Part shown: one piece after another, positions 1,890 through 25,800 of the stretch | How the letters are laid out: each line of letters opens with the position of its first letter | How positions within the stretch are numbered: the stretch's first letter is position 1 | Assembly (NCBI RefSeq): GCF_022045235.1 | Contig: NW_027266286.1 | Span: 75,392,001 to 75,456,000 of the forward strand | DNA from: Haliotis cracherodii | Taxonomy: Eukaryota | Direction: 5' to 3' | Length of the DNA stretch: 64,000 nt | Made by a program: the position numbers and the translations under genes | Notes under the pieces: generated by a model | The model's input: only the letters and a program-made list of their open reading frames with translations | The model's database searches: none | Told to the model about the DNA's origin: nothing

Positions 1890-2006
1890 TGCAGCCGGCT
1901 TCATCCGTGGAGTCTGCGCAGTCGGGTTGCGCGTCGCAGTACAGCTGCAGCGACACGCACTGGCTGTCACCGCACCGGAAGCCAGAACACACAGCCTCAC
2001 TTTCAT
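1890..2006 (-). CDS. Mosaic gene exon 22: LDLa repeat
   Basis: CSGFRCGDSQCVSLQLYCDAQPDCADSTDEAGC; ttgtag| and A|gtaaga; not in ORF track. Confidence 0.9.
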
Positions 2007-5000
2007 CTACAAGAGAAGAGCGACTCAGCGATTAAACACGAGAAGCCTCCCGCGGATGCATGAGTGCGATGGCAGATGAAATTTAGAAAAACAAAACCAT
2101 ACGTCAAACAAAGTATTTTCCCGTACATGTAAAATTCGTGAATTTTATTGGTCGGTGACGTTTTGATTACGTTCCGTGTACGCCGCTACAGTGTAAGTGT
2201 GTACAACTGAAGAAAGTATACCCCGTCCCCATGGCAACAGACATTTTGCAGATCTTAGCAATTTCCGCTATTCATCTGCAGTTCAAGTTCCTTACTGAAC
2301 AACAGAAGTTCCTGTGACACTGAATAAGATTTAATGCAAAGTTATGTTTTTTACCATATCTGAAACAATTCCGGTTTGCAACAGATAAAAGACTCCTGTA
2401 AGTGTTCACAAGTGGTTTAATTTGCCATACTAACTTCAGAAAATGCGTGATTTCATAAACCACATGAACTTGCCAAAATGTCAATTTACAAATCAATAGC
2501 GTGTGTGTCCACCTCTGGTTGCGATGCAAACAACACATCGTCTCATGGAATGGACCAGGTGTCGCACAAAGTCCTGTGGGATATCTGTCCATATCTGCTG
2601 GAGCATGTTTCGAAGTTCCCGGAGTGTCTGTGGAACACGTGGTTGACGTCGAAGGCGCCGATCCATCTCGATTGGTGAGATTTCAGGGGAGCGAGCCGGC
2701 CAGAGCATGACATTCACGTTGTTTTGTTGAAGAGAATCCTGAACAAGTCGATCAATATGAGGCCGTGCGTTGTCATGTTGAAAGGTAAAGCCTGGGGCAT
2801 GACGACGCAAAAACGGTAGAACAACAGGGGCGATGATCTCGTTCCGGTAACGCTGTCCATTGAGATTTCCCTCTACCACTACCAAACGGGTCCTCTGTCT
2901 TGCTGTAATCCCACCCCATACCATAACGCTGCCGCCCCCGAACCGATCTTCTTCCATGACACAATGATTGACGTAACGTTCACCTCGACGTCGGTACACT
3001 CGAATCCGTCCATCGCTGTGGCTGAGGTGAAAACGAGACTCGTAAGTGAATAGAACTTGTCCCAACTGCATGGCCGTCCAGCGTAGACGTTGTCTGCACC
3101 ACTGTAGACGTGCTTGACGGTGGTTTCCTGTCAAAATGGGACGTCTGGCGGGTCTTCTGGCGACAATCCCTGCACATCTTAGGCGACGACGTTCGGTTTG
3201 TGAAGATATTCGTCGAAGGCCAGGGATGCTTCATGCAGTCACTGTTGCTGGCTGGAATCGATTTCGTAGGTGTGTTGTTCGAATCCAGTTGTCTTGTCGA
3301 TTATTGGTTACGCGTGGCCTGCCACTCCGAGGATGGTCTCTGGCTGCATTCGTCTGTTGCCAACGTTGCCATAAACACCAAATGCTGTTTCTGTGGACGT
3401 TAAATTGTCTTGCAACATCACGTTGACTCGATCCTGCTTCAAGCATACCAATGGCTCGCAGAAGCTCATTTTCGGACAGGCGTGGCATTTCGTAATGTTG
3501 AATAAATGCGTAATTTTGTTGTTTTTCTGAGTGGTTGTTGTCAGCACGATGCTAAACAATGCATATGGAGTCCCGTTAACGCACATGTTTTTATACCCAT
3601 TCTTGGGTAGTGAAATGCATGGGGCTTGCATAAATGTCAACTTTTGCATGGAATGCATGCTTTTCTGTAGCAGTTGCGTTTTTGTAACTTGATTCCATAG
3701 ATGTACTACAATATTGAAAACCAAACTTTACTTGTTTGAAAAATACACTAAAATATTGGTGTCACAGGAACTTTTGTTGCTGAGTATATCATAACATTGT
3801 CTCAACATAAATAAATTGTCCTCGGAAGCTCATCTGGCAACACCAGAGGAAGCATGTCATTTTGTTATATGTCATAAATGATAAACAAGGTGGAAATATA
3901 AATTCCTTCGACACACAACGGGTATATCAAGCCGTATACCCTTGGGATAAGTCCAGTACAGCTAATACTATGGAATATATGGTTGCAGACAGCCATATTG
4001 CAGATACTGTTTGTTTGTTTGTTGTTTAACGCCGCACGGCAAGCGTAGTCGCCTCTTACGACAAGCATAGTCGCCTCTTACGGCAAGCATAGTCCACTCT
4101 TACGACAAGCATAGTCGCCTCTTACGACAAGCATAGTTGCCTCTCGCAGAAACCTGAAACTGTCACATGAAGCACCTGAAGCGGTCGTATTGCAGTCTTC
4201 GTCAGTGGCATCGTAGCAGTCGGCCGCACCATCACACCTGTACACGTGGCTGATGTACTCCCCATTGTCACACCTGTACAGGTAGGTGATGTTGGTGATG
4301 TCTGGCGGGGAGTGAGTGTGGGGAAGCGTTGGGCGCCCTGAGTCTGGGGGGAATAGATAATGTATATTGTTATACGTAGTTTGTTCATGTACTGTGCACT
4401 CAGTAGCACTCACCTTACGACGCTGGAAATGTCAGAAACAGATAACAATTGAATACTCAATTCTAATATCTCCTTCGTTAATAGCAATATCGCATGTTTA
4501 AATCGGGGCCAGTGCCTATGATTAAAGATGATATATGCCAGGTTGAAAGCACGGTCCAGACACAGAAGAGAAGAGGCCGGGAGAAAGGGCGAACAATCAA
4601 ACAAACTATTGAATGATCCGATGTTTTTCTCGCAGACAAACTGGGTAATCTGGTCGAATGCGCATGCGACATCGTGCCACGTGGCCGTGGACTGCAAAGT
4701 TGATATGACCAGCATGCCACACAACTCCTGGTCCAACCCGTCTGGCTGGGAGATCCTGGTCCCCGGATCCTGGTACCTGCAACAACAGACATGACCTGGG
4801 CATGACCTGCATGCCACACAATCCCTGCCCCAACCCGTCTGGGAATACTTCATCCAATTAGCAAATGATTTGCTATTTTTCCAGGTAAACCTGTAGCCGA
4901 AACAAAATCCACGCTGCCGAAGAATGATGTCACACAATCAGCAAGTGACAACTCTGAAATCACGTGATCCTCATTTAACTCTAGAGTTAAATATTTCGTA

Positions 5001-8000
5001 CAAGGGGGGTATTCAAAAGGAAGTGAGGCAAATAGTTTCTGTATCCCTTTTCAATATATTAACGTCATTTCCTTTATTCCAATTATTCTTCAAGCTACTT
5101 ATGCCAGAAACAGACTCCCCTGACTGGTCCATCAACCACCCTTCTGTGTCGTCTTCAGATCGGGGTCGGCTTTCAAAGACCAGAACAGATAGAGTGATCA
5201 TTAAGGGAAAAGCCTTTGCCGTCTCAGAATCCCAAGGGTTTTCGCGACGGTTGTATATTATCGCCGAATCAAGACACGACTCTAATTTAAGTCAGAAGCG
5301 TTCAATCTCATTTTAAGATGACTGCCAAACATCAACGTAGATTCGATGTCTGTGGACGCTATGTTTAAGAAAACATTTGAAAAGACGACAAACGTGCTCT
5401 GCATTAAGAACACATAATTTCTTTTCTCGAAAGTTCCCGATACTTCCTATTACCGGAAAATGTCTCACCAGTCAGTGTAGGACAGCGGTCGCCCATCAAG
5501 CCACGACCAGCCAGCCCCAGCAGTCTTCCTCAAACCTGCAATACATATCAGTGAATGCGTGAGTTTAACACAGTTTTTTTCATTTATATCATAACCAGGC
5601 AGCTTACCAAGGGAGGAGGTCGCAAAGAGGTCTTTGACGTTTAATACCACTTTGGTTTAAGCCCGAACACGAGTGTTGTGCAGACAGAGCAAAGGTCAAT
5701 GCCAGGGTCAATCATGGACCCTGTCATGCCTAAGGGACGCAACTCTGCAAAGCGGATTCAACCGTTATAAACAAATGGGGCACCACGTGAGTTAAACGAA
5801 GGAAAATTGGTTATATTAGTTGACTACTGACCAATGAAGACCTCTCGGCGGCGGAAGACGTTCGTTGCGAGTATGAGTGCGTACACAGCCGCCATCTCCT
5901 GCTGGTCCCGAATGCTGACAAGATGGCCGCCACTTTGGCTGCAGTTGTCACGTGCTTCCTCCCACGTGATCCCAGTGTCGTGCACGTTGAGCTTGTACGC
6001 ACTGTCGCCCAACGTGTACCATCCGTCGTCGCTTGGTGCACCTGGGCAAATATAGTACATCTGGTCTCTCCTATACACGGACATATAATTATATCTTTAC
6101 AGATAGTTTTTGTTTTAGTTTTGTTTTATGGAATAAATAAAGAGAGAGAGAGAGGTCTTGGCCGTACGATGGTGATTAAACTGTTGAAAGCCACAGTTGC
6201 GGATGTTGGTTGCCTCCTGTTTGACATCAACATCAGCATCATGGCCCCTGGGACTGGAGATCGCATGTGGTCAAGCCTAAGTCCTCCCTTTGATTCCCAG
6301 AACACGTGCTTCCACTGTAAAGACTCCCATGTGCTGACTCCGCGTCTCACTCACCACCTGTAACTAGCCGTGCATGGAAGATGGCTGGATTTTGAGGTAC
6401 CCATCAAGCAGTTATCTTCATCATACCCACATGCTCTTGAGGTATTGCGGAAACACTGTCATAAGATATTCTACCTCAAGCGAAACCACAATCATCGATT
6501 AATGTTCCAATATATAGATCATATACAGTTCTAATGCGTTATCGACAGCCATTGATATATATATAGGCTAACGATATATTGATGTAATCATTCCTATGGT
6601 TTGTGTCTGGAAATGCTTGTTAATTTAGAAGTATCACATGGAATTTGATACCTGATTTGAATCATGTTTTGATCAATTAGAATCAAGCATCCCTTGTTCC
6701 CGAATCCAAACTTATTTACAGAATGAACTCAATGTAATGTTTCAAACACTTCAGATGTTTTTTCACGTGTTTAACACCTAAAAACATGGTCGCTAAATTA
6801 GCCTTAAAGAAAGGCTAACCGTAACCCGATAATTTAATCTTAATACCTTTGCTTGTTGGAATGTTTTGTGAACACTGCATTTTAGATATTAAAGAATTCC
6901 ATCTATTGCTTGGCGAATGTTTAAAAGTGACATTGAGAGCCATGAAGACATATAGAGATGGATTACCATGAGTGGGGTTCATTGTTTATAGTGAGTGATG
7001 GAGTCAGTGGTGTTTAACATGCACGGGGAAGGTATAACATGTACGATGAGGATATAACATGCACGGGGTGGTTATAACATGTACGATGAGGATATAACAT
7101 GCACGGGGTGGTTATAACGGGGAGAATATAATATGTACGGGGTGGGTATTACATGTACGGTGCGGGAAAGGCATAACATGTACGGGGTATGTATGACATG
7201 CACGGGTTAGGTATGACACGTGCGCTGGGTAGGTATGGCACGTACTGGGTAGGTATGGCACGTACGGGGTAGGTATGGTACGTACTGGGTAGGTATGACA
7301 TGTACGGGGTAGGTATGTCACGTACGGGGTAGGTATGGCACGTACTGGGTAGGTATGGCACGTACTGGGTAAGTATGTCATGTACTGGGTAAGTATGGCA
7401 TGTATCATGAACTATGTGTGGGGTGACTTGCACGTGACACTTCTTATCTCGAGGCCCCTGGGAAGTCGCCAGCCGGGACATTCCAGCTGTTGCCCGGGAG
7501 TGCCTCCCGCCCCTATCTACCTGTACCAGTGTTCATAGACACACGGTGCTGTGATTTATCTTGCTGACAGTCAGAGTGCGCGTAGAAATGTATTCTGGAG
7601 TTCACTGTGTAATGGAAAACTTTCTTGCTTCTTGAGTGGTTGTCAGAGTATAAATGCTTGTCGTACGTGCTGATAGCGTTGACTCATCCCATAGCGTAGA
7701 CTCATCCCACAAAATGACCGAAGTCGATCTAATTGGCAATCTTGTGAAAGTGAGGCAGTGAGTGAGGCTTATATAATTAAGTCGCTTATCCCAGCAGCAT
7801 GACGGCGTGAGGCTAACATTCGGCGTCATGTGTTCATGTGAGAATCGAACCTGGTCCTTGGATCAATGTACCCGCTAGCTTACACTGTAACATCATTACT
7901 AAGATGTAACTTCTGCAACACGTCAGTGCCAACATACCCGCGTCTATACCAAGGCTTGTTCTCACTAGACTGTACTTGATCTGGAAGCCGGTCCCACGCC

Positions 8001-11000
8001 GACCCCCGTCACTGTAGAACTCCACCCCTAGAGAGCTCCAGCTGGACAGGATGTCACCGTTGGGTCGTCGTTCTGTGCAGTGTCGTGCTAGAGGGGTGCG
8101 CGTCCCCTCCATGTCGTAGTCAAACAGCTGCACGTAGTCCCCGTCACAGTCCTACAGGGGGATCATAGAACGCACGAAAACATATATGTCTTTCATCTGG
8201 GGACCAAATCATCGATATATTGTATGATTATATAGGCGTCATTGGACACTGTGGTTTGTAAACGGCCGAGCAGTGAATAGAGGAGCGCCTAAAGGATAAC
8301 ATATATTTTGCAGACGATAGTGTGAAATGGCCATTTGTTGTCCCGAAAAAAAGCATGCACTTCAGGTCCGCGTGATTCCGGTTATCTCGAACAATGCTTG
8401 ACTTCATGTAATCCACTCCCTCTCCACGCTATAACCTTACTACACGTACACACGCCGGCAAGCACGCACACACACACATGCACGCCGGCAAGCACGAACA
8501 CACATACACGCCGGCAAGCACGAACACACATACACGCCAGTAAGCACGAACACACATACACGCCGGCAAGCACGAACACACGAACACACATACACGCCGG
8601 CAAGCACGAACACACATACACGCCGGCAAGCACGAATACACATACACGCCAGTAAGCACGAACACATATACACGCCGGCAAGCACGAACACACGAACACA
8701 CATACACGCCGGCAAGCACGAACACACATACACGCCGGCAAGCACGAACACACATACACGCCAGCAAGCATGAACACACGAACACACATACACGCCGGCA
8801 AGCACGAACACACATGCACGCCGGCAAGCACGAACACACATGCACGCCGGCAAGCACGAACACACAAACACACATACACGCCGGCAAGCACGAACACACA
8901 TGCACGCCGGCAAGCACGAACACACATACACGCCAGCAAGCACGAACACATGAACACACATACACGCCGGCAAGCACGAACACACATACACGGCCGTCAT
9001 GCACGAACACACGAACACACATGCACGCCGGCAAGCACGAACACACGAACACACATACACGCCAGCAAGCACGAACACACATACACGGCCGGCATGCACG
9101 AACACACGAACACACATACACGCCGGCAAGCACGAACATATTTACACGCCGGGAAGCACACACACACATATACACGCACGAACACACATACGCGTCAACA
9201 AGCATGAAAACTATCCAGCAGGCACACTCACGCACGCCAACAAGCACGCACACACGCCAGAAAGTACGCACACACACACGCCAACAAGCACACACACGCA
9301 CGCCAGCAGGCACGAACATAGTCCCCATTAAGCACACACATACACACACACACGCACGCACGCCACCAAGCACGCAGATCCTTTAAAACGAAGATGCTAC
9401 AATGTTACCCTGTTGTCCCCGATGACGTCGAGCCAGAGAAACGTGACGTTGATGTATTCCAGCTCTCGTCCCTGTATCCGCCACTGGCAGTTCGAGAAGT
9501 CGTTGTACATGTGGGGGAACAGGGGGGAGTTGATGTAGCCACATTCACCCCCGCATTTAGGAACGCCCGAGCACGTTCTACCCACGTGCTGACACCCGCC
9601 ACAATCTGCAATGACATGCCTCGTGATCCATATAGTGAGTGAGTTACGCCCCTTTTATAATTATGTCGGCGGGGGAACCAGAAATGGGCTTCACAGCTTG
9701 TACCCATGTATACCTGGGTATTCGGCGTAACGAGAGAATGCTTTAACCACTAGGCTACCCCACCGTCCTAATTTATCGGTATATCACACCAGGACAATAC
9801 CACCCAAGTTACGAAGTGGTCAAAAACACGTGGGGAGACCGACACAAACTGCCGGGCAAAGACCCATGTTTGTGGGTGGCTAAATACGAAACAAATAGGA
9901 AATGGTTATTCGAAGTGATGTACTTGATACGGGTATCATAGTTATGTTTTGAACCTTAAGATCGAAGTGTTTCGGTGACTGTTTTCATGTTAGTAACGTT
10001 TTGATAACGTTTGTTTTTAATCCAATTCTCAAGTGTATATTTATTTTGCCAGACAGGTTAGGTTGACAGAGTGAGGGACCTGACTTAACACATTGAACAG
10101 ATACTAGTACACCACCGAGGACGCATGTAATCATACATAAATACATGAACTAGAATATCCACTTTGTAAACTGCCGTACCTGACTCATTGATGTGTAAGG
10201 TAAATCCCCTGGCGGCTGTCTCACTGAGTCTATAGCAAGATTTGAAGGTGAAGGTCATCTGAGATTCACTGCTGATGAGCTGACTCTCCCGGAAGTTGAC
10301 AGAATCTGTCCCTGTCACGGACCACAGCGGCTGCGACCCCACCCCCGGGCCGTCGTGCACGATCAGGGTATCCTCGCACTGCCCCAGGGTCGGGCTGTAG
10401 AGGGACTGAAGGGGAGAGTATAACATTAACATAGGTCAGCACCAAGTCACATTGGGTGTAAGAATCTACATCGAAACGTCGCTATATGCAATAAACCAGA
10501 AGTTGTAATCTATTAAGTTGGACGTTTTCCTACTTACTTGCCAACTTCTAGAATGCCAATCAAAGAGATTGGAATGTATCTCCGAGAGTGACCGTATTGG
10601 TGTTAAATGAGTGTACAGACAGGCCCCACAATCCTTCAAAAGATTGTGAATTAAGTTTAGAAAAAAATCCACTTCATGTCTTACTAATTTGGTTTGCTGT
10701 ATGGTCCATTTCACGAAAACTGTTTCACAACGCGCCTCAGCCTGATGCGACGTTAAAGTTGAACTCATTCACTAACAGTACTGTCAGAGTAATGGCGTTT
10801 CACCGTACAACATGCCTCACCCTGATCTGCGTCTGGAGGGGAGCAAGTTCGATGTCTACCACTGTCAGCTGGATGAACACCCCCGGGGGAAACTGTACCT
10901 TCCACTCGCACTCCAGCCCCTCCCCATAGTACAGAGGGTAGGAGGGGGAACGCAGCTCTGTGGACGACGTGACAGTCGCGTGACATTCGTGGAAGCGGTG

Positions 11001-11592: not shown

Positions 11593-11634
<42 letters not shown>

Positions 11635-14600: not shown

Positions 14601-17600
14601 CCCCATTGTAAGACCACACCCTGTGTCTGAAGTAGAAACAAGCCTGTATATACCTGATTTGACCCCCATTATATGACTACACCCTGTGTCTGAAGTAGAA
14701 ACAAGCCTGTATATACCTGGTGTGACCCCCATTGTACGACCACACCCTGTGTCTGAAGTAGAAACAAGCCTGTATATACCTGATGTGACACCCATTGTAC
14801 GACCACACCCTGTGTCTGAAGTAGAAACAAGCCTGTATATATCTGATGTGATTACCATTGAATGACTACACCCTGTGTCTGAAGTAGAAACAAGCCTGTA
14901 TATACCTGATGTGACCCCCATTGTAAGACCACACCCTGTGTCTGAAGTAGAAACAAGCCTGTATATATCTGACGTGACCCCCATTGTACGACCACACCCT
15001 GTGTCTGAAGTAGAAACAAGCCTGTATATACCTGATGTGACCCCCATTGTACGACCACACCCTGTGTCTGAAGTAGAAACAAGCCTGTATATACCTGATG
15101 TGACCCCCATTGTTCGACCACACTCTGTGTCTGAAGTAGAAACAAGCCTGTATATACCTGATGTAACGAGATACACCCATACACTGTAGTGGTTTTTAGA
15201 ATTTAACACAGACGAGACTTCAAAACATGATTAGAAATGTATCTAAATCCTAAACGGAATACACATTTAGCTCTACACACATGAAATAAGCTATCGCATG
15301 ACAGCCTAAACACCTCCTAAACACAACATTCCCATAATGTAAACATGTTCAGAAATTAACACCTTAAAACATGTTTGGAATTTAAACTTGTTTAAAGTTA
15401 AAATATATTTAGAGTTTAAAAATGTTTACAATTTGAACATGTTTCAATAAAGTTCACATTATTAAGCAAAAAGTTAAAATCAAATATAGATACGATGTGC
15501 AAATCTGCTTCACAGGCACTTGCCTAACACATATACAGCGTACAGCGACCTGACACCTGTGACGACATGTCTCCGTGGCACAGGTGGTAGCGTAAAGGAC
15601 CACACATCAAGAGGTTGCGGGTTCGTATCCCACCCAGGATATGTGTTCATAAATGTGTTGTTGCTTATGACTAATAATGCATCTCTCATACAGCAAGCTG
15701 ACAATGAAAGTATATCTCATTACTACTATAGACTTTTAACGTATATGTTAGCACCACAAATTAATAAAATAGCGGTGAACACGCCCCCCTCGTCCACACA
15801 CACACAAACACACACAGACACGTTTTTGTTTCCCTTTTAAACGCAAATCAAAATATATACAGCACCCCTTTTTAAATTACCTACAGTGAATGTCAAGTGG
15901 TGTATATGTTACAGTCAATGCATATAATCAGTCAATATGTATATTGACAGAACACTTCAGTCAATATGTATATTGACAGAACACTTCAGTCATTATGTAT
16001 ATTGACAGAACACTTCAGTCAATATGTATATTGACAGAACACTTCAGTCAATATGTATATTGACAGAACACTCCAGTCAATATGTATATTGACTGATTCA
16101 CTCGGGCAATGTACGTATTGACTGAAAAATGAGACTGGATTTTAGACAGATTGACTGAAATAAATTACACAGTCACTCCTTAATATGATCTCAACATTTT
16201 AACTCGGATCTACTTTAAACTTACGAAGATCAAAGTAACTTCTGTAAGTAATTAAAAATGTTTTCACAATGAATTGTTTGGTTGTTCAGACATGGATAAT
16301 CCAGTCCTCTTTTACGTCACTTATCTTGATTCGTTTACACTTCTGATTTGAGAAGTAGAAGAGATTTGTACAGTTCTACAACCTCGCGGGTGATATTAGC
16401 ATATTCAGACTTCTACTCGGAGTTGATCTTCTCACAATATTGAATGACAAACTAATTCTGCCAGTGTATAGCTTGAATATAGCTGAGTACGGCGTTAAAC
16501 AAACAAACAAACAAACAAACAAACATATCCTGCAGCTAAATGAGTCTGAGGGAAAGTGTGAGATAAGAAGGACGTGGATAACCTGGCAATCCTGGTACAA
16601 GCAGGGACTGTAACGGTTTATCTGTTCAGTGAGCCTCCTACCTTCAACGTAGATTTCTATTTCCGTCACGTGCAGGCTGTTCAGTGTTCCTTGGTTCACC
16701 TCCGGATCCCAGTGCACGAAGTCCTGCACTGTGACGTAACGAGCTCTGATTGGCTGATCACATTCGAATGCAAAGACAGAAGTTTTATGTGTGCTGTGGG
16801 GTCCACCGCAAACATGGGCACCAAAGGTAAAGAAATCCCACTGTCGCCTGCTGAGCCACGTGACCGCATCCCAGAAGGCGTATGGTGTTGCCACTATGTG
16901 AGAGCAACAAAGAGTCTTAGTCAAAGTTGTTGCCAAGGAAACTGGAAAAATACTTTTTTTAAAATTCATAACTATCAAAAGGCACCAGTTCACAACTAGA
17001 CCTATGTATGTGCCAAGTTTGGTTAAGACATCTGTCACGTGTTTTGAGTTTTGCTCTGGAAACGAAACGTGGCGGAAGGAGGGACAACGGACAGCACCCA
17101 CTCCTACATGCCCCTTCAGCTTCGTGGCTGGGGGTAATAAACAGACATGAGTCATGTTCAGAGATCACCAATGGGTTGGAATCGGCCCCAGTATTGCAAA
17201 ACTAGATGCTTGTCGCATGAGGCAGCGGGCAGATTCAGGGAAGGGAGGTCACTCTCAGTTTATTGCACGGAACTTGACATTTAGTTATGTACATGAAGTA
17301 CAGTCAGACAATTACTCAAATAATAGCCTCAGCTTGAGACCGTAGCGCTGGGTCATCATCATGATGAAACACATTCACTCACGAGGGGCAGATAATCCGG
17401 AACTCACTGACATTTTAAGAAGGAAAACGTTAGAAATGTTAGGAAAGGGGCACGTTGCAAGCCACGAATCGCTTAGATAAAGCAAAGTAGTTGCTCAGCC
17501 CGGGGTCTGCAACAGCTCGAAGCGCTTACGCACTCTTCCAAAATTAAGAACGTAATAGAAGAGGCTCGATGACCAGCCGATAGATTTGTGACTACTTTGT

Positions 17601-20600
17601 AGATGTGGAGCAGACCGAGGATGGTGCGATGTTAACTGCCTTTGCTAATTTCCCAGTTGATCCAGTCAAGAATTTCTTGTTCCACTGTCAAACGCAGCCG
17701 CCATTTTGGTTTGAGAACGAAGCGACCTCAGCCACCGATTGTCGCGCTTGCAAGCGGCTGAAAATAAGCGCACCGTTTTAAGGCGAATCGCTGTGCATCG
17801 CTTGCAAGCGATTGGTGCTTTGCAACGCACCCAAGATTAACTCCACTGAAGGCGTTCAGATAACGTCGTGTTGAACGTCATATTGAATTTTCTCAACAAT
17901 AAAGCACTGCGACGTCATATGGGTTTAATTGAAAAATCAGCAATGATAATCGCTTAAATGCAAATGTGAACATATCGGGAAGTTATCACAATCACTCTAC
18001 CCAGAAGGGTAGTTTAAGGTGTTATCTTTGCTGGTGTGCAGGAACTGAAAATAGCAAACAAAGAGAAAACAGTTTATCATCCAAAACTGGCTCCCACAGG
18101 AGATATAGCTTGGGTGAAATTGCATGACAATGCATTGTGACATCATTGGTTACCATGACGTCACAATCAAATGACATCACTAATGGATCTGCTACTGAAG
18201 CTGTAAGCAGGACATTTTACGCTTAAGACACTGCTTATTACTGTCTACAAGCTAAAAAAGTTGGAAGAATGATGTTGGATGATAAATAAAATCTCACCCT
18301 CGTGTCTTTTGATACCAAATATATCAACACTCATTGATATATTTGATATACAAAGCCACTCGGTGAGATTATCTATATATTCTCACCGTTTGTAAGGTAT
18401 ACAATGACTTTGTGAACGATGACGTCACGCATGACGTCGACTTGTATCCAAGGTTCCACCAGAGGTCTCCGGCTAATGAAGGCAGCGTTAGCTGGAACAG
18501 TAATATGTGTACGTGTCGTTCTACTGTCGTCAGTAGCAAGCAAATAGTGTGTACAGTATACATCAAGCGCGTTTCATTGCAGTGACAGAACAAATCTTTC
18601 AGCACCATTGCTTTTCCACATGTTTTGCGATAGTTACTTGTTAAACCGTCAACGACAGATCTCCTGTCCGATCCCTCCGCCTCGTCGCAGGAATACAGCG
18701 GATAGCCCAGTGACGTCATTTTGTGCACGCGGGCAGATAACTCGGCTGAAACAAGTAAAAACAGACAATGTAGGCAATGTAACAAAGGTTTGAGATCGAC
18801 ACGACAGACACAGTGCAACTTCAAACGTCGCAGAGCACAACGTCATCAACGACAGACAGGAAGAGGAGAAGGTGTGACGTACGACAGCCAGGAAGTGGAG
18901 AAGGTGTGACGTACGACAGACAGGAAGAGGCGAAGGTGTGACGTACGACAGACAGGAAGAGGAGAAGGTGTGACGTACGACAGACAGGAAGTGGCGAAGG
19001 TGTGACGTACGACAGACAGGAAGAGGCGAAGGTGTGACGTACGACAGACAGGAAGTGGAGAAGGTGTGACGTACGACAGACAGGAAGTGGAGAAGGTGTG
19101 ACGTACGACAGACAGGAAGAGGCGAAGGTGTGACGTACGACAGACAGGAAGTGGAGAAGGTGTGACGTACGACAGACAGGAAGTGCAGAAGGTGTGACGT
19201 ACGACAGACAGGAAGATGCGAAGGTGTGACGTACGACAGACAGGAAGAGGAGAAGATGTGACGTACGACAGACAGGAAGTGGCGAAGGTGTGACGTACGA
19301 CAGACAGGAAGAGGAGAATGTGTGACGTACGACAGACAGGAAGAGGAGAAGGTGTGACGTACGACAGACAGGAAGAGGAGAATGTGTGACGTACGACAGA
19401 CAGGAAGTGGAGAAGGTGTGACGTACGACAGACAGGAAGAGGAGAAGGTGTGACGTACGACAGACAGGAAGAGGAGAAGGTGTGACGTACGACAGACAGG
19501 AAGAGGAGAATGTGTGACGTACGACAGACAGGAAGAGGAGAAGGTGTGACGTACGACAGACAGGAAGAGGAGAATGTGTGACGTACGACAGACAGGAAGA
19601 GGAGAAGGTGTGACGTACGACAGACAGGAAGAGGAGAAGGTGTGACGTACGACAGACAGGAAGAGGAGAATGTGTGACGTACGACAGACAGGAAGAGGAG
19701 AAGGTGTGACGTACGACAGACAGGAAGAGGAGAAGGCGTGACGTACGACAGACAGGAAGAGGAGAAGGTGTGACGTACGACAGACAGGAAGAGGAGAATG
19801 TGTGACGTACGACAGACAGGAAGAGGAGAAGGCGTGACGTACGACAGACAGGAAGAGGAGAAGGTGTGACGTACGACAGACAGGAAGAGGCGAAGGTGTG
19901 ACGTACGACAGACAGGAAGAGGAGAAGGTGTGACGTACGACAGACAGGAAGTGGAGAAGGTGTGACGTACGACAGACAGGAAGTGGCGAAGGTGTGACGT
20001 ACGACAGACAGGAAGAGGAGAAGGTGTGACGTACGACAGACAGGAAGTGGAGAAGGTGTGACGTACGACAGACAGGAAGAGGAGAAGGTGTGACGTACGA
20101 CAGACAGGAAGAGGAGAAGATGTGACGTACGACAGACAGGAAGTGGCGAAGGTGTGACGTACGACAGACAGGAAGAGGAGAAGGTGTGACGTACGACAGA
20201 CAGGAAGTGGAGAAGGTGTGACGTACGACAGACAGGAAGAGGCGAAGGTGTGACGTACGACAGACAGGAAGAGGAGAAGATGTGACGTACGACAGACAGG
20301 AAGTGGCGAAGGTGTGACGTACGACAGACAGGAAGAGGAGAAGGTGTGACGTACGACAGACAGGAACAGGACACAGTTGAAGGCCTTCCACAGATTCATA
20401 CTGCACGCAGACAGGCCCCCCGGGAGCGTCTTCCAGCGCCCGACAGTAGCGCGCCTCAAGCAAGGAGGGGGCCACGTCTCCACCGAGAGCGTTCCACTCC
20501 TTCGTCCTCGTCCATTCGTTGCAATGCCCGCCGTCAGATAATGTTTCATGACGTCCCCGGTAGGATGCGCCCTTGTCCTGTCTATCCCAGCATTCTCTCC

Positions 20601-23600
20601 GGGCTAATAAATGCAGAAACACGGATTAAAAGAGAATATAACAAATGCTTGTATTTTAGTAATACTCCACGAACGATGTTTTACGTGTTATGTCGACCGC
20701 ACCTGCACAGAATGTACAACACAATGTAATATGCGTACCATACGGCACATAGTGGCACAGCCCGAGGTTGAGGTCCGGGGTACCCGGTAGAAAGGTGAAC
20801 GTGTGGGAGTTGAGAATCATACCCTTCAGGGATGGGCAGGCCGTAAACGAAGTTCTCTGGGGGTGAAAAGCATATTTTAGTTACATAATAATTTCCTTGT
20901 TGAGAAAAAAGTGCCTGGGGCAAAAAACATGGTAAAAAAATTCTGGTCAAGGTTGCTGTATTTGTTTTTTTTTCCAGAACATATTGTACATCTGGATGAC
21001 ATGCGCACGCACTTATATACACTTCCCTCACCTCCCTATTCTTGTATGTACAGTGTTATGACGTCACCCAGCCTATGATGACGCAGAAAATATGACGTCA
21101 CAGTCCGCTTTAATAAGGTGGTTACGATGTCCGACATGGGCCCCGTTCCACAAAACGATCGTAGCGTTAGACGATCATAATTCCCATACTTTAATATAGA
21201 CTTAGTCAGTCTTAGAGTTAAGATCGCTTTGTGGAACGGGGCGATATTGCCTCATCATACCACGACCGCCTGCATCGTTCTTCAAGTTGATTTCCAATCG
21301 TGTGGCTGGTCCAGGTTTCGTGACTTAACATGCTGCCTTGACAAGGCTGGAATATTGCTGATTGCGGCGTTACAGAACATGCACTCACACACATAGATCA
21401 TTAACCATGTTTAAGCAGGGCAAAGCAGATCTAGACATTGGTGTTCGTAATGCGGGCACACCTGGAGTAACACGAACGCCGACGATGTTGGAAGGTGGAA
21501 GGCTTTGCTCGGGTCTTCGTCGTCCCTGCAGCATAGACCCAGACTAAAGGACAACGTATCTGCTGAAAAGTCGACAAGGATGGCGGCGTCTCTGTCTGTT
21601 GTCGTCACAGCGTAGTTTTCAAGTGTCATGGCGTCGTAGCGGAAATCTGTGGAGGGCGAAGGCTGGGCTGAGAGTTTTGCTGAGAGTGCCCAGGAAAGTG
21701 CTTGGTATGAGAAACATGAAGTAGTTGCCATAGGTACTGATAAGAGACTCGCTTCCGGGTTTCACATCGGACAATACATTGTAGCTGTTTCAAATCGAAC
21801 AATACATTGTAGCTGTTTCACATCGGACATTACATTGTACCTGTTTCACATCGGACATTACATTATAGCTGTTTCACATCGGACAATACATTGTACCTGT
21901 TTCACATCGGACATTACATTGTACCTGTTTCACATCGGACAATACATTGTACCTGTTTCACATCGGACATTACATTGTAGCTGTTACACATCGGACTATA
22001 CATTGTACCTGGTATATCAGATTATTCATTGTACCTGTTTCACATCGGACAATACATTGTACCTGTTTCACACCGGACAATACATTGTAGCTGTTTCACA
22101 TCGGACTATACATTGTACCTGTTTCACATCGGACTATACATTGTACCTGTTTCACATCGGACAGTACAATGTACCTGTTTCACATCGGACAATACATTAT
22201 ACCTGGTATATCGGACTATACATTGTACCTGTTTCACATCAGACAATACAATGTACCTGTTTCACATCGGACTATACATTGTAGCTGTTTCAAATCGGAC
22301 TATACATTGTACCTGTTTCACATCGGACTATACATTGTAGCTGTTTCACATCGGACAATACAGTGTACCTGTTTCACATCCGACAATACATTGTACCTGG
22401 TATATCGGACTATACATTGTACCTGTTTCACATCGGACAATACAATGTACCTGTTTCACATCGGACAATACATTGTAGCTGTTTCACATCGGACAATACA
22501 ATGTACCTGTTTCACATTGGACATTACATTGTACCTGTTTCACATCGGACATTACATTGTTCCTATTTCACATCGGACATTACATTGTACCTGTTTCACG
22601 TCGGACATTACATTATAGCTGTTTCACATCGGACTATACATTGTACCTGTTTCACATCGGACTATGCATTGTACCTGGTATATCGGACAATACATTGTAC
22701 TTGGTATATCGGACTAACCATTGCACCTGGTATATCGGAGTATACGTTGTACCTGGTATATCGGACTATACATTGTACCTGGTATATCGGACTATACATT
22801 GTACCTGGTATATGGGACTATACATTGTACCTGGTATATCGGTCAGACAGTTCACGTGGTTATTAATGTATCTTATGGGAGACACAGAAATCATAGCCCA
22901 GTTTGTCGTTTGTAATGATATCGAAATTCACATGGGCATACACGCCCGCATATATGATTACGGCCATACGGAAATATTCATAAGTCTAAACACATTGTTT
23001 GATCAAATCTGAACTGTTGCGTATTAATACTTGATATTATTTTGATAATCGTTGTTAGCATGCTAAAATATTGATATGTTGCAGTGATAGAGATTGTTGT
23101 ACGTTTGTTGGTCAGTGACAGCAAATAATTGAGTGATGTTGAATGATAACGAAATGTCAGTGGAATTTAGAATTACCTCCTCTGTTGTTTATCAACAAAA
23201 CAGGTTTGATCGTTGGGGAAGTTTCAGGATGGGACAGTTTCGATGAGGCTGAGTTTAGCAGACCGAGACGGGGAGAGTGGGGGTCTATGTCGGCCTGACT
23301 TGTCGAATCCCGGTTCGCGCCCATTATGTTTCTAGGTTTGTCAGCACCATGCCCGTGCTCCTGGTTTTCACCAAATTGGTAAACGTCTGAGACCTGCATC
23401 ACTTCGGGCTTTCCTCCGACATGAAACCGACACGCCGTGATGTGACGGGAATACTGCTAAAAGCGGCGTTAAAACCAACTCACTCACTCACATACTCGTT
23501 TTAGTACAAAACAGAAGAAGGCATGAACACCTAAAATACCTAAAAAAACTCTTTATTCAACTGCATAATCAGCCTTTGCCTCTCTGTGCTGGACATTAAC

Positions 23601-25800
23601 TGTTGTATCAAAATATGCCAAATGTGTGTTTATATGATTGTGAGCAACGGACAGGTTGACTTACCTGTAGGACAATCCCCCGGGACGACCTTCACCAGGC
23701 AGTAGGACCCCCGGGGCCAGGGGGGACGGGAAACGTTGCCCGCCTCATCAACCTCCCCTCCATCCCCCTCATGCTCCACTCTCACACACAGGTTCAGCTG
23801 AATGGTCCGGTAATGGTAGGGTCCTAGCAGAGGGAGGTTGTTGGTCCATGTTTGTCTACCGTCGCTGCTGTTGTTGCCAACGTAGGTGAGATTGATGAAG
23901 GTGGTCGTCCATCCATGGTTCTCACTCTCAGGGCATCCCGTCGAGGTGGACAGCAGGCCGTATGACCCTATGGGCCAATCGCTCTCCCGCCTTTCTGAAA
24001 ATAGCACGTGTGAACGTCAGAACTTGTATCACTGTTTCAGGAAACGTGCTGCAGATTTCAACAAGATGACAGTAATAATAATAAGAACAATAAAGATAGT
24101 AATACTGAGCATCCGTCGTTACACAGTCTGAAATAGTAACACTGAAGCATCACTTTCTTTCCCAGTATACTCCGACAGCTTTATATCAATGTATTTGGTA
24201 TGCACCGACAGCCTTATATCAATGTATTTGGTATGCACCGACAGCTTTATATCAATGTATTCGGTATGCACCGACAGCCTTATATCAATGTATTCGGTAT
24301 GCACCGACAGCCTTATATCAATGTATTTGGTATGCACCGACAGCTTTATATCAATGTATTTGTTTTACACCGACAGCCTTATATCAATGTATTTGTTTTA
24401 CACCGACAGCCTTTTATCAATGTGTTTGGTATCATGGCTAAAACAATTGTGAAGTTTGTTTTACAGCAATTCGAAAGTGTCCGAGAAAAAATATTACAAG
24501 TTTCATAAGTATATGCGATGTACATGAAAACAATATGTGCTGGTGTCGTTTTTCGAAAAAAAGGTTCTGTTCCAAATAATGCTGATGGTGTTGGACAGCG
24601 CGATATAAGCCAGGCTACGCGTCCATATAAGCCACGCAGTGCTGCGATATAAGCCTATAAACACAAAGATAAGCCATGTTACATGGCAATGTAATCCATG
24701 TAACGCATTGATGTAACTCACTCAACAGGCTGATGAATTCCACGGATAATGGTTTGCATCGATATTAGCTCGGCAACGAATCCTGGAAAGGGCATTCTTT
24801 CATGTACTACAGATTTGTTGATGTAAAGTGAGTGAGTTAAAAGTTAACGTCACATCGTGTGGATGTAAATGTCATCTTATTGGACTATGCGCGCAATTCG
24901 CCTTTCTTCTTGAAGTAATTGACGTGAGAGGTTTGTTTGTATGTTGTTTAAGGCCGCGCTCAGCAATATTCCAGCTGTATGACGGCGGTCTGTAACTAAT
25001 CTAGTCTAGACCAGACAATCCGGTGATTGATATCAAGAGCATCGATCCACGCATTTGGGAAGCGATGACATGCATCAACCAAAACAAGCATAGTCACCTT
25101 TTGCGACAAGCATGGGTTTTTAAAGACCTATTCTACCCCGGATCGTTACGGTCGAGAGAGAGGTCAGACAGGTCAGATAGGTCAGAGAAGCACGTGTATT
25201 TACCAATGGCACAGAAAGTGCCCGTATATCCTGGTTCACAGTCGCAGACGCAGCCAGTGTTGTTGAGGACGCCTCTGCTACCACACTGCAGCCAACGACA
25301 TTCTGACAGAAAACACAAAACTATTATATTGACATGCCTTGATACAACACTGTTAGCGCCATTAATACCTGTTCTTGTTGTGTAACGCTATACGTGAACT
25401 TGAAGGGTATGTTATATCCTAGGAATACTCATGGCGATTAGTACTGACTACTAATTTCTAGTAAGCAAACTGTGGTAGCCTAGTGGTGAAAGCGTTTGCT
25501 CGTCACGTAGAAGACCCGTGATCGATTCCTAACTTGTGTGAATCCCATTTGTGGTGTTCCTCGCCGTGATATTGCTGGAATATTGCTAAAAGCGGCGTAA
25601 AACCATACTCACTTATATGCAACTTAAGCCAGTGGTTATTTGATAATCGCTCATGTCTTAAATGATGTTTACACGCTTCGCTGACTGACCTGGCAGGAAC
25701 TCTCTCACCTACCTGGCACGCCCTCGTCCCACAGAATGTACGCCGACACTGTCGTGAACGAAAACAACGTCATGACAAAGGTGGTTGACATCGCCGGCAT
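1890..25800 (-). CDS. Multi-exon mosaic extracellular receptor/lectin (SP-EGF-ApeC-kringle-FTP-F5/8C-PAN-CUB-CUB-CTL-LDLa-LDLa...), 3' end probably outside the window; possibly a GRL101-like LDLa-containing GPCR
   Basis: 22 exons with GT-AG boundaries and consistent phases summing to 3907 nt (1302 codons + 1). Domain motifs recognised exon by exon (see below). One donor (4606) is weak. Confidence 0.85.
2295..3784 (-). mobile_element. Tc1-family DNA transposon, near full length, disrupted transposase
   Basis: Imperfect TIRs (ct.a.caaca.aagttcctgtgacac) flanked by TA; ORF pieces 3488-3231 (MPRLSENE, HTH, RSGRP) and 3134-2493 (FTYESRF, VWGGI, QHDNARPH, WPARSP, GGHTRY); stop, frameshift and first catalytic D changed to Y. 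Confidence 0.92.
4176..4343 (-). CDS. Mosaic gene exon 21: linker + LDL-receptor class A repeat
   Basis: YRCDNGEYISHVYRCDGAADCYDATDEDC (four-Cys variant). Confidence 0.85.
4607..4776 (-). CDS. Mosaic gene exon 20: C-type lectin part 3 (3' boundary uncertain)
   Basis: QPDGLDQELCG...WHDVAC...FVCEK; only a weak phase-1 donor (A|gtttgt) found. Confidence 0.75.
5469..5535 (-). CDS. Mosaic gene exon 19: C-type lectin part 2
   Basis: GLRKTAGAGWSWLDGRPLSYTDW; phase 1-2. Confidence 0.9.
5832..6041 (-). CDS. Mosaic gene exon 18: C-type lectin part 1
   Basis: GWYTLGDSAYKL...TWEEARDNCSQSGGHLVSIRDQQE...VFIG. Confidence 0.9.
7015..7400. repeat. ~20-bp degenerate minisatellite
   Basis: ggtaggtatggcacgtactg / ataacatgcacggggtgg units. 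Confidence 0.85.
7938..8151 (-). CDS. Mosaic gene exon 17: CUB domain 2 part 2
   Basis: CDGDYVQLFD...LARHC...LGVEFYSDG...GFQIKY. Confidence 0.85.
8445..9375. repeat. CA-rich ~28-bp minisatellite
   Basis: cacacatacacgccggcaagcacgaa units, decaying toward 9375. Confidence 0.9.
9409..9605 (-). CDS. Mosaic gene exon 16: CUB domain 2 part 1
   Basis: CGYINSPLFPHMYNDFSNCQWRIQ...INVTFLWLDV. Confidence 0.85.
10180..10405 (-). CDS. Mosaic gene exon 15: CUB domain 1 part 2
   Basis: CEDTLIVHDGP...ISSESQMTFTFKS...RGFTLH. Confidence 0.85.
10821..11005 (-). CDS. Mosaic gene exon 14: CUB domain 1 part 1
   Basis: ELRSPSYPLYYGEGLECEWKVQ...IQLTVVDIEL. Confidence 0.85.
11198..11554 (-). CDS. Mosaic gene exon 13: PAN/apple-like domain
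   Basis: TWEDCFAAC...CAGFTYEAETGQCQ; tttcag| and G|gtgaga; phase 1-1. Confidence 0.8.
11575..11643. repeat. (TAC)n microsatellite
   Basis: actactactac run inside the short intron between exons 12 and 13. Confidence 0.95.
11694..11838 (-). CDS. Mosaic gene exon 12: F5/8C part 3
   Basis: EFRVDP...VLARQIRLTFPRGDACVKMELLGCP (AR.IRL...MELLGC discoidin end). Confidence 0.85.
11960..12680 (-). mobile_element. 3' end of a non-LTR retrotransposon (LINE) remnant
   Basis: C-terminal ORF2-like peptide (FYQEWHSTLENS...KYL...F) followed by AATAAA and a short repeat tail. Confidence 0.55.
12706..12861 (-). CDS. Mosaic gene exon 11: F5/8C part 2
   Basis: VDLLTPSVVDAVVVQGWTEGSNVRFVTSFNVGY...; cgtag| and T|gtgagt; phase 0-0. 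Confidence 0.85.
13962..14122 (-). CDS. Mosaic gene exon 10: F5/8 type C (discoidin) part 1, using the last of 17 repeated acceptors
   Basis: DTGCGRTMGVTSGYIQDFQIFSSS...ARLHREKGWCSSPDDTQPYIE; donor GAG|gtaacc; the 5' boundary could be any in-frame acceptor up to 15130. Confidence 0.8.
14085..15166 (-). repeat. 63-bp minisatellite, 17 copies, each holding the exon-10 splice acceptor and first 36 exonic nt
   Basis: Unit (minus) gtatatacaggcttgtttctacttcag|ACACAGGGTGTGGTCGTACAATGGGGGTCACATCAG; first and last acceptors 1008 = 16x63 nt apart. Confidence 0.95.
15928..16125. repeat. 29-bp tandem repeat with palindromic core
   Basis: cagtcaatatgtatattgacagaacactt x5-6. Confidence 0.9.
16642..16893 (-). 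CDS. Mosaic gene exon 9: FTP-like part 3
   Basis: ...HVCGG...FECDQPIRARYVTVQ...LHVTEIEIYVE; phase 1-1. Confidence 0.85.
17448..17832. mobile_element. MITE with ~27-bp TIRs and 3-bp target duplication (Harbinger-like)
   Basis: gggcacgttgcaagccacgaatcgctt ... aagcgattggtgctttgcaacgcaccc, flanked by aag on both sides. Confidence 0.65.
18387..18491 (-). CDS. Mosaic gene exon 8: FTP-like part 2
   Basis: NAAFISRRPLVEPWIQVDVMRDVIVHKVIVYLTN (PWxxVD motif); ttccag| and G|gtgaga. Confidence 0.8.
18638..18745 (-). CDS. Mosaic gene exon 7: F-type lectin (FTP)-like domain part 1
   Basis: ELSARVHKMTSLGYPLYSCDEAEGSDRRSVVDGLT; tttcag| and A|gtaact; phase 1-1. Confidence 0.75.
18849..20366 (-). repeat. 32-bp minisatellite, ~47 copies, each holding the kringle-exon splice donor
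   Basis: Unit (minus) TTCCTGTCTGTC|gtacgtcacaccttctcctc; first and last donors 1472 = 46x32 nt apart. Confidence 0.95.
20355..20603 (-). CDS. Mosaic gene exon 6: kringle domain
   Basis: ECWDRQDKGASYRG...HCNEW...RYCRALEDAPGGPVC...CPVPVC, six Cys; donor C|gtacgt is the first unit of the 32-bp array. Confidence 0.85.
20739..20856 (-). CDS. Mosaic gene exon 5: ApeC part 3
   Basis: RTSFTACPSLKGMILNSHTFTFLPGTPDLNLGLCHYVPY (C...GM ... C.Y); not in ORF-track frame; phase 0-1. Confidence 0.75.
21140..21242. mobile_element. Short MITE with inverted termini
   Basis: gccccgttccacaaaacgatc ... gatcgctttgtggaacggggc; related end at ~61737. Confidence 0.65.
21462..21646 (-). CDS. Mosaic gene exon 4: ApeC part 2
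   Basis: DFRYDAMTLENY...LCCRDDEDPSKAFHLPTSSAFVLLQ (CCRxD...LPT..PF.L type motif); phase 1-0. Confidence 0.8.
21760..22842. repeat. 27-28-bp minisatellite, ~40 copies
   Basis: tgtttcacatcggacaatacattgtacc units. Confidence 0.95.
23665..23994 (-). CDS. Mosaic gene exon 3: apextrin C-terminal (ApeC) domain, part 1
   Basis: WPIGSYGLLSTSTGCP...WPRGSYCLVKVVPGDCPT matches the WPxGxY...GCP/WPxGxYC ApeC pattern; ttttcag| and G|gtaagt. Confidence 0.85.
24170..24430. repeat. 33-bp tandem repeat, ~8 copies
   Basis: caccgacagccttatatcaatgtatttggtatg. Confidence 0.9.
25204..25302 (-). CDS. Mosaic gene exon 2: EGF-like domain
   Basis: ECRWLQCGSRGVLNNTGCVCDCEPGYTGTFCAI; tgtcag| acceptor, G|gtaaat donor, phase 1-1. 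Confidence 0.85.
25713..25800 (-). CDS. Mosaic gene coding exon 1: signal peptide
   Basis: MPAMSTTFVMTLFSFTTVSA-YILWDEGVP; donor CCAG|gtaggt, phase 1. Confidence 0.7.

What the first reader, a model, noticed from the sequence alone, without database searches (positions are those of the whole stretch)
1890..25800. Unusual multi-recognition mosaic receptor: ApeC + kringle + F-type lectin + discoidin + PAN + 2 CUB + C-type lectin + LDLa
Seen: all these domains join in one phase-consistent ORF, with domain borders at phase-1 introns, the classic exon-shuffling signature. Established: ApeC is an invertebrate domain implicated in bacterial cell-wall recognition, and FTP, discoidin and CTL are glycan-binding folds. 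CUB/CTL followed by LDLa repeats resembles the N-termini of molluscan GRL101-like LRR GPCRs. Inference: this may be a pattern-recognition ectodomain on a GPCR or other membrane anchor outside the window; the full combination may be undescribed.
Basis: partly seen in the sequence, partly recalled or inferred. Interest (0 to 1): 0.7.

Follow-up and report, generated by a model that had tools for sequence, protein, structure and literature searches.

The report
Giant mollusc GPCR with dead-kinase tail
This abalone gene encodes a predicted 2,384-residue surface receptor that joins a long chain of sugar- and microbe-binding-type modules to a G-protein-coupled signalling core and a shrunken, likely inactive kinase-like tail; oysters and scallops share the design, and it likely senses microbial or other sugar-coated surfaces.

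Summary
The 22 minus-strand exons in the window continue for 11 more exons to the left. Together they give one 33-exon, 2,384-aa reading frame with no internal stop: signal peptide, EGF, ApeC, kringle, F-lectin-fold, discoidin, PAN, 2 CUB, C-type lectin, 4 LDLa, fibrinogen/COLFI-like domain, 3 LDLa-like repeats, LRR, hinge, class A 7TM, and a cytoplasmic tail. It is a GRL101-like (type C2) leucine-rich-repeat GPCR. It is not unique: 16 public proteins from 9 named mollusc species and 2 unnamed contigs carry ApeC and 7TM in one chain, and this genome has seven such 7TM exons, five in tandem. Three scallop members were listed in an ApeC survey whose text never mentions a 7TM. New here: the full gene (orthologue models miss 500-1,000 residues), two splice joints seen in one run, and a conserved tail that folds like a truncated kinase lacking the catalytic residues. 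The F-lectin lacks its fucose motif; the C-type lectin keeps QPD/WHD. The ligand is untested; glycan or microbe sensing is the best guess (about 0.5).

The parts
25713..25800 (-). Exon 1: start codon and predicted signal peptide (aa 1-29)
   Evidence: First ATG of its open frame; hydrophobic 11-mer KD 1.78; bivalve homologues have a like signal region ahead of EGF
25204..25302 (-).
   Evidence: Pfam EGF_Teneurin 1.2e-4; aligned in bivalve homologues
23665..23994 (-). Exon 3: ApeC, first half
   Evidence: Pfam ApeC 1.4e-11; 92% identical to the split abalone model P0001
21462..21646 (-). Exon 4: ApeC, middle
   Evidence: Pfam ApeC 0.024; joint to exon 5 seen in run X5
20739..20856 (-). Exon 5: ApeC, end (eight Cys in all; about 19 aa shorter than homologues)
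   Evidence: Family alignment; spliced contig
20355..20603 (-). Exon 6: divergent kringle, six Cys
   Evidence: Pfam Kringle 5.9e-7; present in 12 of 14 homologues; joint to exon 7 in run X5
18638..18745 (-). Exon 7: F-type-lectin-fold domain, part a
18387..18491 (-). Exon 8: F-type-lectin-fold domain, part b (no His/Arg fucose motif)
16642..16893 (-). Exon 9: F-type-lectin-fold domain, part c (an alternative in-frame acceptor lies at 16941)
   Evidence: Collinear with homologues; 35-40% identical to paralogue exons
13962..14122 (-). Exon 10: discoidin (FA58C), part a; its acceptor is the last of 17 in-frame copies
   Evidence: 87% identical to P0003; acceptor copies
12706..12861 (-). Exon 11: discoidin, part b
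   Evidence: Pfam F5_F8_type_C 0.016
11694..11838 (-). Exon 12: discoidin, part c
   Evidence: Match to P0003
11198..11554 (-). Exon 13: PAN domain
   Evidence: Pfam PAN_1 1.1e-4
10821..11005 (-). Exon 14: CUB1, part a
   Evidence: Pfam CUB 1.2e-6
10180..10405 (-). Exon 15: CUB1, part b
   Evidence: Match to P0003
9409..9605 (-). Exon 16: CUB2, part a
   Evidence: Pfam CUB 7.9e-7
7938..8151 (-). Exon 17: CUB2, part b (public 1,384-aa models start inside this exon)
   Evidence: Pfam CUB 2e-5
5832..6041 (-). Exon 18: C-type lectin, part a
   Evidence: Pfam Lectin_C 7.4e-5
5469..5535 (-). Exon 19: C-type lectin, part b
   Evidence: Identical to P0002 here
4607..4776 (-). Exon 20: C-type lectin, part c, with QPD, Glu and WHD
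4176..4343 (-). Exon 21: LDLa 1
   Evidence: Pfam Ldl_recept_a 1.4e-6
1890..2006 (-). Exon 22: LDLa 2. The gene goes on left of the window in 11 exons (L002 9925-613, L003 9381-6486): LDLa 3-4, fibrinogen/COLFI-like domain, LDLa-like 5-7, LRR, hinge, 7TM, kinase-remnant tail
   Evidence: Pfam 1.5e-9

Best explanation
This is one 33-exon gene for a predicted 2,384-residue GRL101-like (type C2) leucine-rich-repeat GPCR of a conserved gastropod-bivalve subfamily, whose stacked outer modules likely capture sugar-coated microbial or foreign surfaces and likely switch on G-protein signalling, with a predicted catalytically dead kinase remnant likely serving as an intracellular docking site. Steps: (1) shown: one open frame, all domains, intact class A motifs; (2) inferred: the calcium-dependent, galactose-type C-type lectin is the most credible sugar site and ApeC may bind peptidoglycan, while kringle, F-lectin fold, discoidin, PAN and CUB act as spacers or protein-binding modules; (3) inferred from other LGRs (recalled): binding moves the LDLa/LRR arm so that the conserved hinge peptide engages the 7TM; (4) inferred: the tail cannot phosphorylate and recruits partners. 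Confidence in the anatomy is about 0.93; in this function about 0.5.
For: One gene: 7,155 nt, 33 exons, only stop at codon 2385. Two joints in the unannotated block appear in contigs of run X5: kringle to F-lectin (30 of 30 loose letters equal window 18716-18745) and ApeC exon 4 to 5 (29 of 30 equal 21466-21495), compared by eye. 12 of 102 hits and 10 of 11 (16 distinct) carry ApeC and 7TM in one chain, two of them from unnamed contigs of 8.5 and 7.4 kb, too short to hold the introns. In G000 the 7 best of 17 7TM matches (58% or more) each have an ApeC exon upstream on the same strand; the other 10 do not; the six paralogous loci show the same exon order. Signalling core: seven hydrophobic segments; DRF, CWFP and NPVIY motifs; the hinge is the best-kept part against paralogue and bivalves, 60-80%. 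Sugar site: QPD or QPN plus WHD in 13 of 14 homologues. Function leads: mollusc short ApeC proteins bind peptidoglycan, one even with all DXED motifs changed (PMC9585378 passages); a tandem cluster of CTL-LDL-LRR GRL101-like genes lies in a schistosome-resistance region of Biomphalaria sudanica (PMC12297450 passages); heterobranch GRL101-like proteins fall on the same side of a 100/100 branch as this gene; tandem expansion with most divergence in kringle, F-lectin, CTL, fibrinogen-like and LRR parts. Tail: AlphaFold pLDDT 84; 50 of 50 VIA rows (top Z 10.8 Rad53, 10.6 RNase L, 10.1 PAN3) and 40 of 40 shown Foldseek rows are kinase-fold chains; none of the 16 full-length rows of the 18-row alignment has the catalytic Asp or a DFG.
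Against: No ligand, tissue or challenge data for any member. The F-lectin fucose triad is missing in the window gene and all 14 homologues, canonical ApeC DXED motifs are missing, and the kringle lacks the usual lysine-site pattern (motifs recalled, FBP32 alignment). No positive selection among the five tandem paralogues: dN is at or below dS in every cell with a defined dS, as expected of a receptor for a fixed ligand. In the Biomphalaria study the top variants lie in a neighbouring Zn-RING-IAP gene, not in the receptors. GRL101 is an orphan proposed to bind IGF (PMC8286064), and snail and starfish GRL101-like genes are reported in sensory organs. The splice joints come from 1 of 7 runs laid, at depth about 4, and the run is only guessed to be RNA; no contig spans ApeC to 7TM of this gene. 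All public orthologue models start inside the ectodomain. The best Foldseek E-value for the tail is only 4.9e-3, and rmsd values are 3.5-12.6 A.
Confidence: 0.5

Rival explanations
1. A receptor for an endogenous insulin-like or relaxin-like peptide (or its carrier complex): the LRR/LDLa/hinge core binds the hormone as in type C1 LGRs, and the outer modules tune localisation or availability.
For: Type C LGR core with conserved hinge; IGF hypothesis for GRL101 (PMC8286064); purifying selection in all domains.
Against: That hypothesis concerns single-copy canonical GRL101 with 10-12 LDLa, which forms a separate 99/99 clade. Seven copies with fast-diverging LRRs (37-42% to paralogue and bivalves) fit a single hormone less well.
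Confidence: 0.22
2. A matrix, adhesion or chemosensory receptor (epithelial contact, mucus or shell matrix, settlement cues) rather than an immune sensor; the long ectodomain binds self or environmental glycoproteins.
For: CUB, discoidin, PAN, kringle and the fibrinogen/COLFI-like domain are common in matrix and adhesion proteins (recalled); apextrin was described in larval apical matrix (PMC8361754); GRL101-like genes are expressed in tentacles and palps (PMC6573481, PMC6267866).
Against: The apple-snail 'GRL101' family was not shown here to be this subfamily; no expression data for this gene.
Confidence: 0.23
3. Two genes, or a decaying 5' block: a secreted ApeC protein upstream of a shorter GPCR, as public annotation has it.
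For: Public models split the locus into a 194-aa ApeC protein and a 1,384-aa receptor; the F-lectin to discoidin joint was not seen in RNA; a partial ApeC-to-CUB2 copy exists on C56 and one C45 copy has a stop in ApeC.
Against: 2,961 coding bases upstream of the public start exon are open and in phase; run X5 splices ApeC exon 4 where the 194-aa model reads into the intron, and joins kringle to F-lectin; the 1,384-aa model begins inside CUB2 with no signal peptide; full-length homologues align from residue 3-31 onward.
Confidence: 0.05

Closest known systems
GRL101 of Lymnaea and its orthologues (type C2 LGR)
   Same: Several LDLa repeats, LRRs, hinge and class A 7TM; orphan (PMC4079206, PMC11863921).
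   Different: Canonical ones have 10-12 LDLa and little else, form a separate clade and did not match the tail profile (0 of 6). This protein adds about 1,200 residues of other modules, splits seven LDLa-like repeats with a fibrinogen/COLFI-like domain and has the kinase-remnant tail.
Biomphalaria SudRes2 GRL101-like receptors (PMC12297450)
   Same: CTL-LDLa-LRR-7TM core, tandem cluster, gene presence and length differences among copies, proposed recognition role.
   Different: Described with CTL, LDL and LRR only; 'kinase domain' occurs 0 times in that text; the Biomphalaria hit P0067 has a 13-residue tail. Orthology to SudRes2 genes was not tested.
Mollusc ApeC-containing proteins, complex groups 8/9 (PMC9585378)
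   Same: OWF35041.1, XP_021343350.1 and OWF42800.1 (P0011, P0194, P0111) are in its Supplementary Table 1; groups 8 and 9 are called highly complex, with more than ten domains.
   Different: The text has no occurrence of 7tm, LRR, CUB or transmembrane and tests only short secreted proteins. I could not see Figure 1B, which may draw this architecture.
Echinoderm mosaic GRL101-like receptors (P0041, P0044, P0049)
   Same: Discoidin, CUB, CTL, LDLa, LRR, 7TM; P0044 and P0049 match the tail profile (1.2e-8, 6.5e-12).
   Different: No ApeC; three discoidins, EGF, different order; other side of the long 7TM branch.
Pseudokinase scaffolds (RNase L, PAN3, IRAK3) and lectin receptor-like kinases
   Same: Kinase fold without catalytic residues; lectin outside, kinase-like module inside (recalled).
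   Different: Here only about 125 residues of the fold remain and they hang on a 7TM receptor; no function is shown.

Membership tests
Type C2 LGR (GRL101-like) | Class A 7TM domain | tested here: met
   7tm_1 1.6e-23 on exon 29, full 1-260 in orthologue P0002; seven hydrophobic segments
Type C2 LGR (GRL101-like) | LRR array followed by a Cys-rich hinge | tested here: met
   LRR_8 1.2e-38, 4 stretches; 5 strict repeats by pattern; hinge 60-80% conserved
Type C2 LGR (GRL101-like) | Multiple LDLa repeats before the LRRs | tested here: met
   Six exons with Pfam LDLa hits plus one divergent repeat seen by eye (exon 27, no hit)
Canonical GRL101 orthologue | Groups with arthropod and mollusc GRL101 (10-12 LDLa) in a 7TM tree | tested here: not met
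   The six rows I labelled canonical form a 99/99 clade beyond a 100/100 branch; the model sits with abalone and limpet paralogues, 98/96 (82 of 87 rows, 5 dropped for short 7TM match)
ApeC domain | About 200 aa with eight conserved Cys | tested here: met
   Pfam hits on exons 3 and 4; eight Cys in the alignment
ApeC domain | Three DXED motifs | tested here: not met
   Absent at the expected places in the gene and its homologues (positions recalled); one DDED follows the CC pair
ApeC domain | Peptidoglycan binding | not testable with these tools
   Shown only for short secreted proteins (PMC9585378)
F-type lectin | Galactose-binding-like jelly-roll fold | tested here: met
   Tested on paralogue P0008: model pLDDT 64; Foldseek lists discoidin, CBM32 and F-lectin chains, highest TMq 0.53 (3CQO) and 0.52 (1K12); best sequence hit FBP32
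F-type lectin | His...Arg-x-Asp...Arg fucose-binding motif | tested here: not met
   No His at the FBP32 position in the gene or any of 14 homologues; the window gene also lacks the first Arg
Calcium-dependent C-type lectin | QPD or EPN motif, Glu and WND-type motif, four core Cys | tested here: met
   QPD, Glu, WHD in the gene; QPD/QPN and WHD in 13 of 14 homologues; binding not tested
Active protein kinase | Gly-rich loop, VAIK lysine, HRD aspartate, DFG | tested here: not met
   Tail too short for the first strands; no Asp at the HRD position in 16 of 16 full-length aligned tails; one scallop relative outside the alignment (P0038) keeps HGD
Kinase-fold (pseudokinase) remnant | Structural match to the kinase core | tested here: met
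   atlas score 0.94 to a Pkinase cluster; Z up to 10.8 over about 120 residues, rmsd 5.5-6.4 A for the top three

The most novel reading that the evidence does not exclude
Molluscs (and, with other outer modules, echinoderms) have an unrecognised class of hybrid innate sensors: a multi-lectin, ApeC-tipped ectodomain on a GPCR that also carries a miniature pseudokinase, so that one chain couples microbial recognition to both G proteins and a kinase-scaffold pathway, expanded in tandem and diversified segment by segment.
Probability: 0.25. Interest if true: 0.8.

Novelty: new variant of a known kind. Interest (0 to 1): 0.55.

Why it matters
GRL101-type receptors have been orphans since 1994. A conserved mollusc subfamily with an intact lectin site and an ApeC tip gives concrete ligands to test, and links to a snail parasite-resistance locus. 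A kinase-fold remnant on a class A GPCR tail did not turn up in my literature searches and can be tested directly. In practice, public models of this locus lack 500-1,000 N-terminal residues, so expression and association studies in abalone miss or split it.

Tried and rejected
Search with the ApeC exon for longer proteins was capped at 2,000 residues and found only the split 194-aa model. The representative search gave 92 hits, mostly fragments, two over 2,000 aa. No RNA holder is on record as RNA. (window 16250-18830, runs X1, X2, X3, X5) was swamped by intronic repeats; X1-X3 gave no cover of the F-lectin exons, X5 gave short pieces and no joint was listed; X7, X9 and X11 gave nothing: none of this is evidence on expression. 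A strong-looking donor at 4414 and acceptors at 4337, 4301 and 4273 were considered for the CTL-LDLa joint and rejected for 4607/4343, which match P0002 and P0003. A possible linker exon near 7520 was rejected on the same ground. PDB sequence search with the fibrinogen-like exon found nothing; that domain rests on the atlas (GON/COLFI/Fibrinogen_C clusters, 0.85-0.93) and on my recalled likeness to CASPR proteins. Gene conversion among tandem copies: dS varies from 0.3-0.6 to saturation by domain, but inside the big exon the change is gradual, so only a weak hint. Literature: ApeC + GRL101, 0 papers; apextrin + GPCR + LRR + oyster, 0; searches listed nothing that describes this architecture or a kinase-like LGR tail by title or abstract start; PMC2246102 has 0 occurrences of 'kinase'. 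The 2021 ApeC survey (doi 10.1016/j.ympev.2020.107009) is not held and may describe the architecture. No earlier scan findings. No complex prediction was run.


Full report
1. Observation. The gene lies on the minus strand. Reading frames and splice sites give 22 exons from the ATG at 25800 to 1890. Per-exon Pfam scans confirm ApeC, kringle, discoidin (weak), PAN, two CUB, C-type lectin and two LDLa, and add an EGF exon. The three exons read as F-type lectin have no Pfam hit. A profile of them with four homologues finds FBP32 first (E 0.003) and eel agglutinin sixth among 9 PDB sequences, and a model of the paralogue's domain matches the galactose-binding-like fold. All 16 domain-border introns are phase 1, against 7 of 16 internal ones.

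2. The rest of the gene. The window is G000:C23:75392001-75456000. The 20 kb to its left hold 11 more exons: LDLa 3 and 4, a domain that the atlas places with GON/COLFI/fibrinogen-C clusters, three more LDLa-like repeats, a 1,554-base exon with LRRs, hinge and TM1-6, then TM7 and a tail. The corrected model has 33 exons, 7,155 nt and 2,384 residues with a single terminal stop. Abalone proteins P0198 (100%) and P0002 (97%) match residues 1001-2384 and P0003 (85%) residues 519-2381; the ApeC part is a separate 194-aa record. So public annotation truncates or splits the locus.

3. One gene or two. Contigs of run X5 cross two introns of the unannotated block exactly at my predicted sites (compared by eye). 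This is 1 of 7 runs laid, depth about 4, kind only guessed as RNA. Homologues settle the design: 12 of 102 hits of the LRR-7TM exon and 10 of 11 hits of a scallop N-terminal region have ApeC and 7TM in one chain, 16 distinct proteins of 2,007-2,413 aa from an abalone, four scallops, three oysters, a protobranch clam and two unnamed contigs. They align with the model at 34-39% identity over nearly its whole length. In G000, the 7 closest of 17 7TM matches each follow an ApeC exon; five are tandem on C45, one is on C56, with the same exon order. Among the C45 copies dN is at or below dS in every domain with a defined dS, ApeC included. That was measured on paralogues, not on the window gene.

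4. Which modules look functional. From the family alignment: the C-type lectin keeps QPD, Glu and WHD, the calcium and galactose-type pattern (recalled), as do 13 of 14 homologues (7 QPD, 6 QPN). ApeC keeps eight Cys but not the DXED motifs; a snail ApeC with all three changed still binds peptidoglycan (PMC9585378). The F-lectin-fold domain lacks the fucose triad family-wide. The kringle keeps six Cys only. The 7TM has DRF, CWFP and NPVIY, and the hinge is the most conserved segment, as expected if it acts as the tethered agonist known from other LGRs (recalled).

5. The tail. After TM7, 168 residues contain a block conserved from abalone to oysters, scallops, mussels, clams and two echinoderms, and absent from the six canonical GRL101 rows. 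The atlas ranks a Pkinase cluster second (0.94); one homologue has a weak Kdo-kinase hit (0.006). The AlphaFold model from 20 tails has pLDDT 84. Foldseek gives no match under E 0.001, but all 40 rows shown are kinase-fold chains; VIA gives 50 of 50, led by Rad53, RNase L and PAN3 (Z 10.8, 10.6, 10.1). By eye it spans roughly helix C to helix F and lacks the Gly-rich loop, the catalytic Asp and DFG. It is best read as a dead, truncated kinase remnant; any docking role is inference.

6. Placement. In a 7TM tree of 82 rows (5 of 87 dropped) the model groups with abalone and limpet paralogues (98/96). A 100/100 branch separates 51 rows, whose named members are all molluscs and include Biomphalaria, Aplysia and Elysia GRL101-like proteins, from canonical GRL101 and echinoderm rows. 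The tree is unrooted and several rows are long branches. The protein is a type C2 LGR but not the GRL101 orthologue.

7. Mechanism. I favour a surface sensor of sugar-coated, probably microbial or foreign, material: lectin and ApeC modules capture, the LDLa/LRR/hinge arm transmits, the 7TM activates a G protein, and the tail docks partners (about 0.5). Support is indirect: ApeC biochemistry, the intact lectin site, tandem expansion, and a related receptor cluster in a snail resistance region whose top variants lie in a neighbouring gene (PMC12297450). Rivals are an insulin-like peptide receptor (PMC8286064) and a matrix or chemosensory receptor (PMC6573481, PMC6267866). The lack of positive selection and of several binding motifs counts against a fast-evolving immune receptor.

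8. What is known. Papers seen as passages only: PMC8286064, PMC8361754, PMC2246102, PMC12297450, PMC4079206, PMC6267866, PMC6573481, PMC11863921. PMC9585378: passages, section 18 and part 1 of 2 of its supplement; figures not visible. Three scallop members of this family are in its list, so the architecture may be drawn there or in the 2021 survey that I could not open. My searches found no text describing an ApeC-tipped GPCR or a kinase-like LGR tail; subscription journals are largely missing from the library.

9. Verdict. Real, correctly seen, and larger than the window. A known receptor type with a conserved, little-noticed mollusc architecture and an apparently undescribed kinase-remnant tail: new variant of a known kind, interest 0.55.

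Noticed in passing
window 14122-15130 (minus): A 63-base satellite repeats the acceptor and first codons of exon 10 seventeen times, all in frame and in an open frame; use of an upstream acceptor would insert multiples of 21 residues between the F-lectin and discoidin domains.
   Followed up: partly
window 18920-20360; L002 near 9028, 7178 and 613: Satellites that carry splice donors: the kringle donor 12-mer occurs 46 times at a 32-base period; three L002 donors are followed by arrays holding donor-like motifs.
   Followed up: partly
G000:C45:46.02-46.21 Mb: Five tandem paralogues with the same exon order; the fifth has an in-frame stop in its first ApeC exon in this assembly; divergence differs strongly by domain.
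   Followed up: partly
G000:C56:5.314-5.365 Mb: A partial unit (ApeC to CUB2) sits directly before a second unit that reaches the 7TM and showed no PAN or CUB2 match: a truncated duplicate or a doubled ectodomain.
   Followed up: no
window about 33000-63000 (plus): Three or more tandem ML-domain (GM2-activator-like, recalled) genes; ML domain hits at 34801, 46319 and 62673. ML proteins bind lipids and some act in immunity (recalled).
   Followed up: partly
window 2496-3551 (minus): Tc1/mariner-type transposon with a broken transposase in the intron between LDLa 1 and 2.
   Followed up: yes
L004 7236-2848 (minus): Next gene downstream is a proteasome lid subunit PSMD13/Rpn9.
   Followed up: yes
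P0022, P0024-P0028, P0030, P0033, P0034, P0037, P0038, P0040, P0044, P0049: The kinase-remnant tail also occurs in mussel, clam, scallop and echinoderm GRL101-like models without ApeC: 36 of 74 extracted tails match, 16 of them outside the training set and its clusters (14 of 88 proteins gave no tail).
   Followed up: partly
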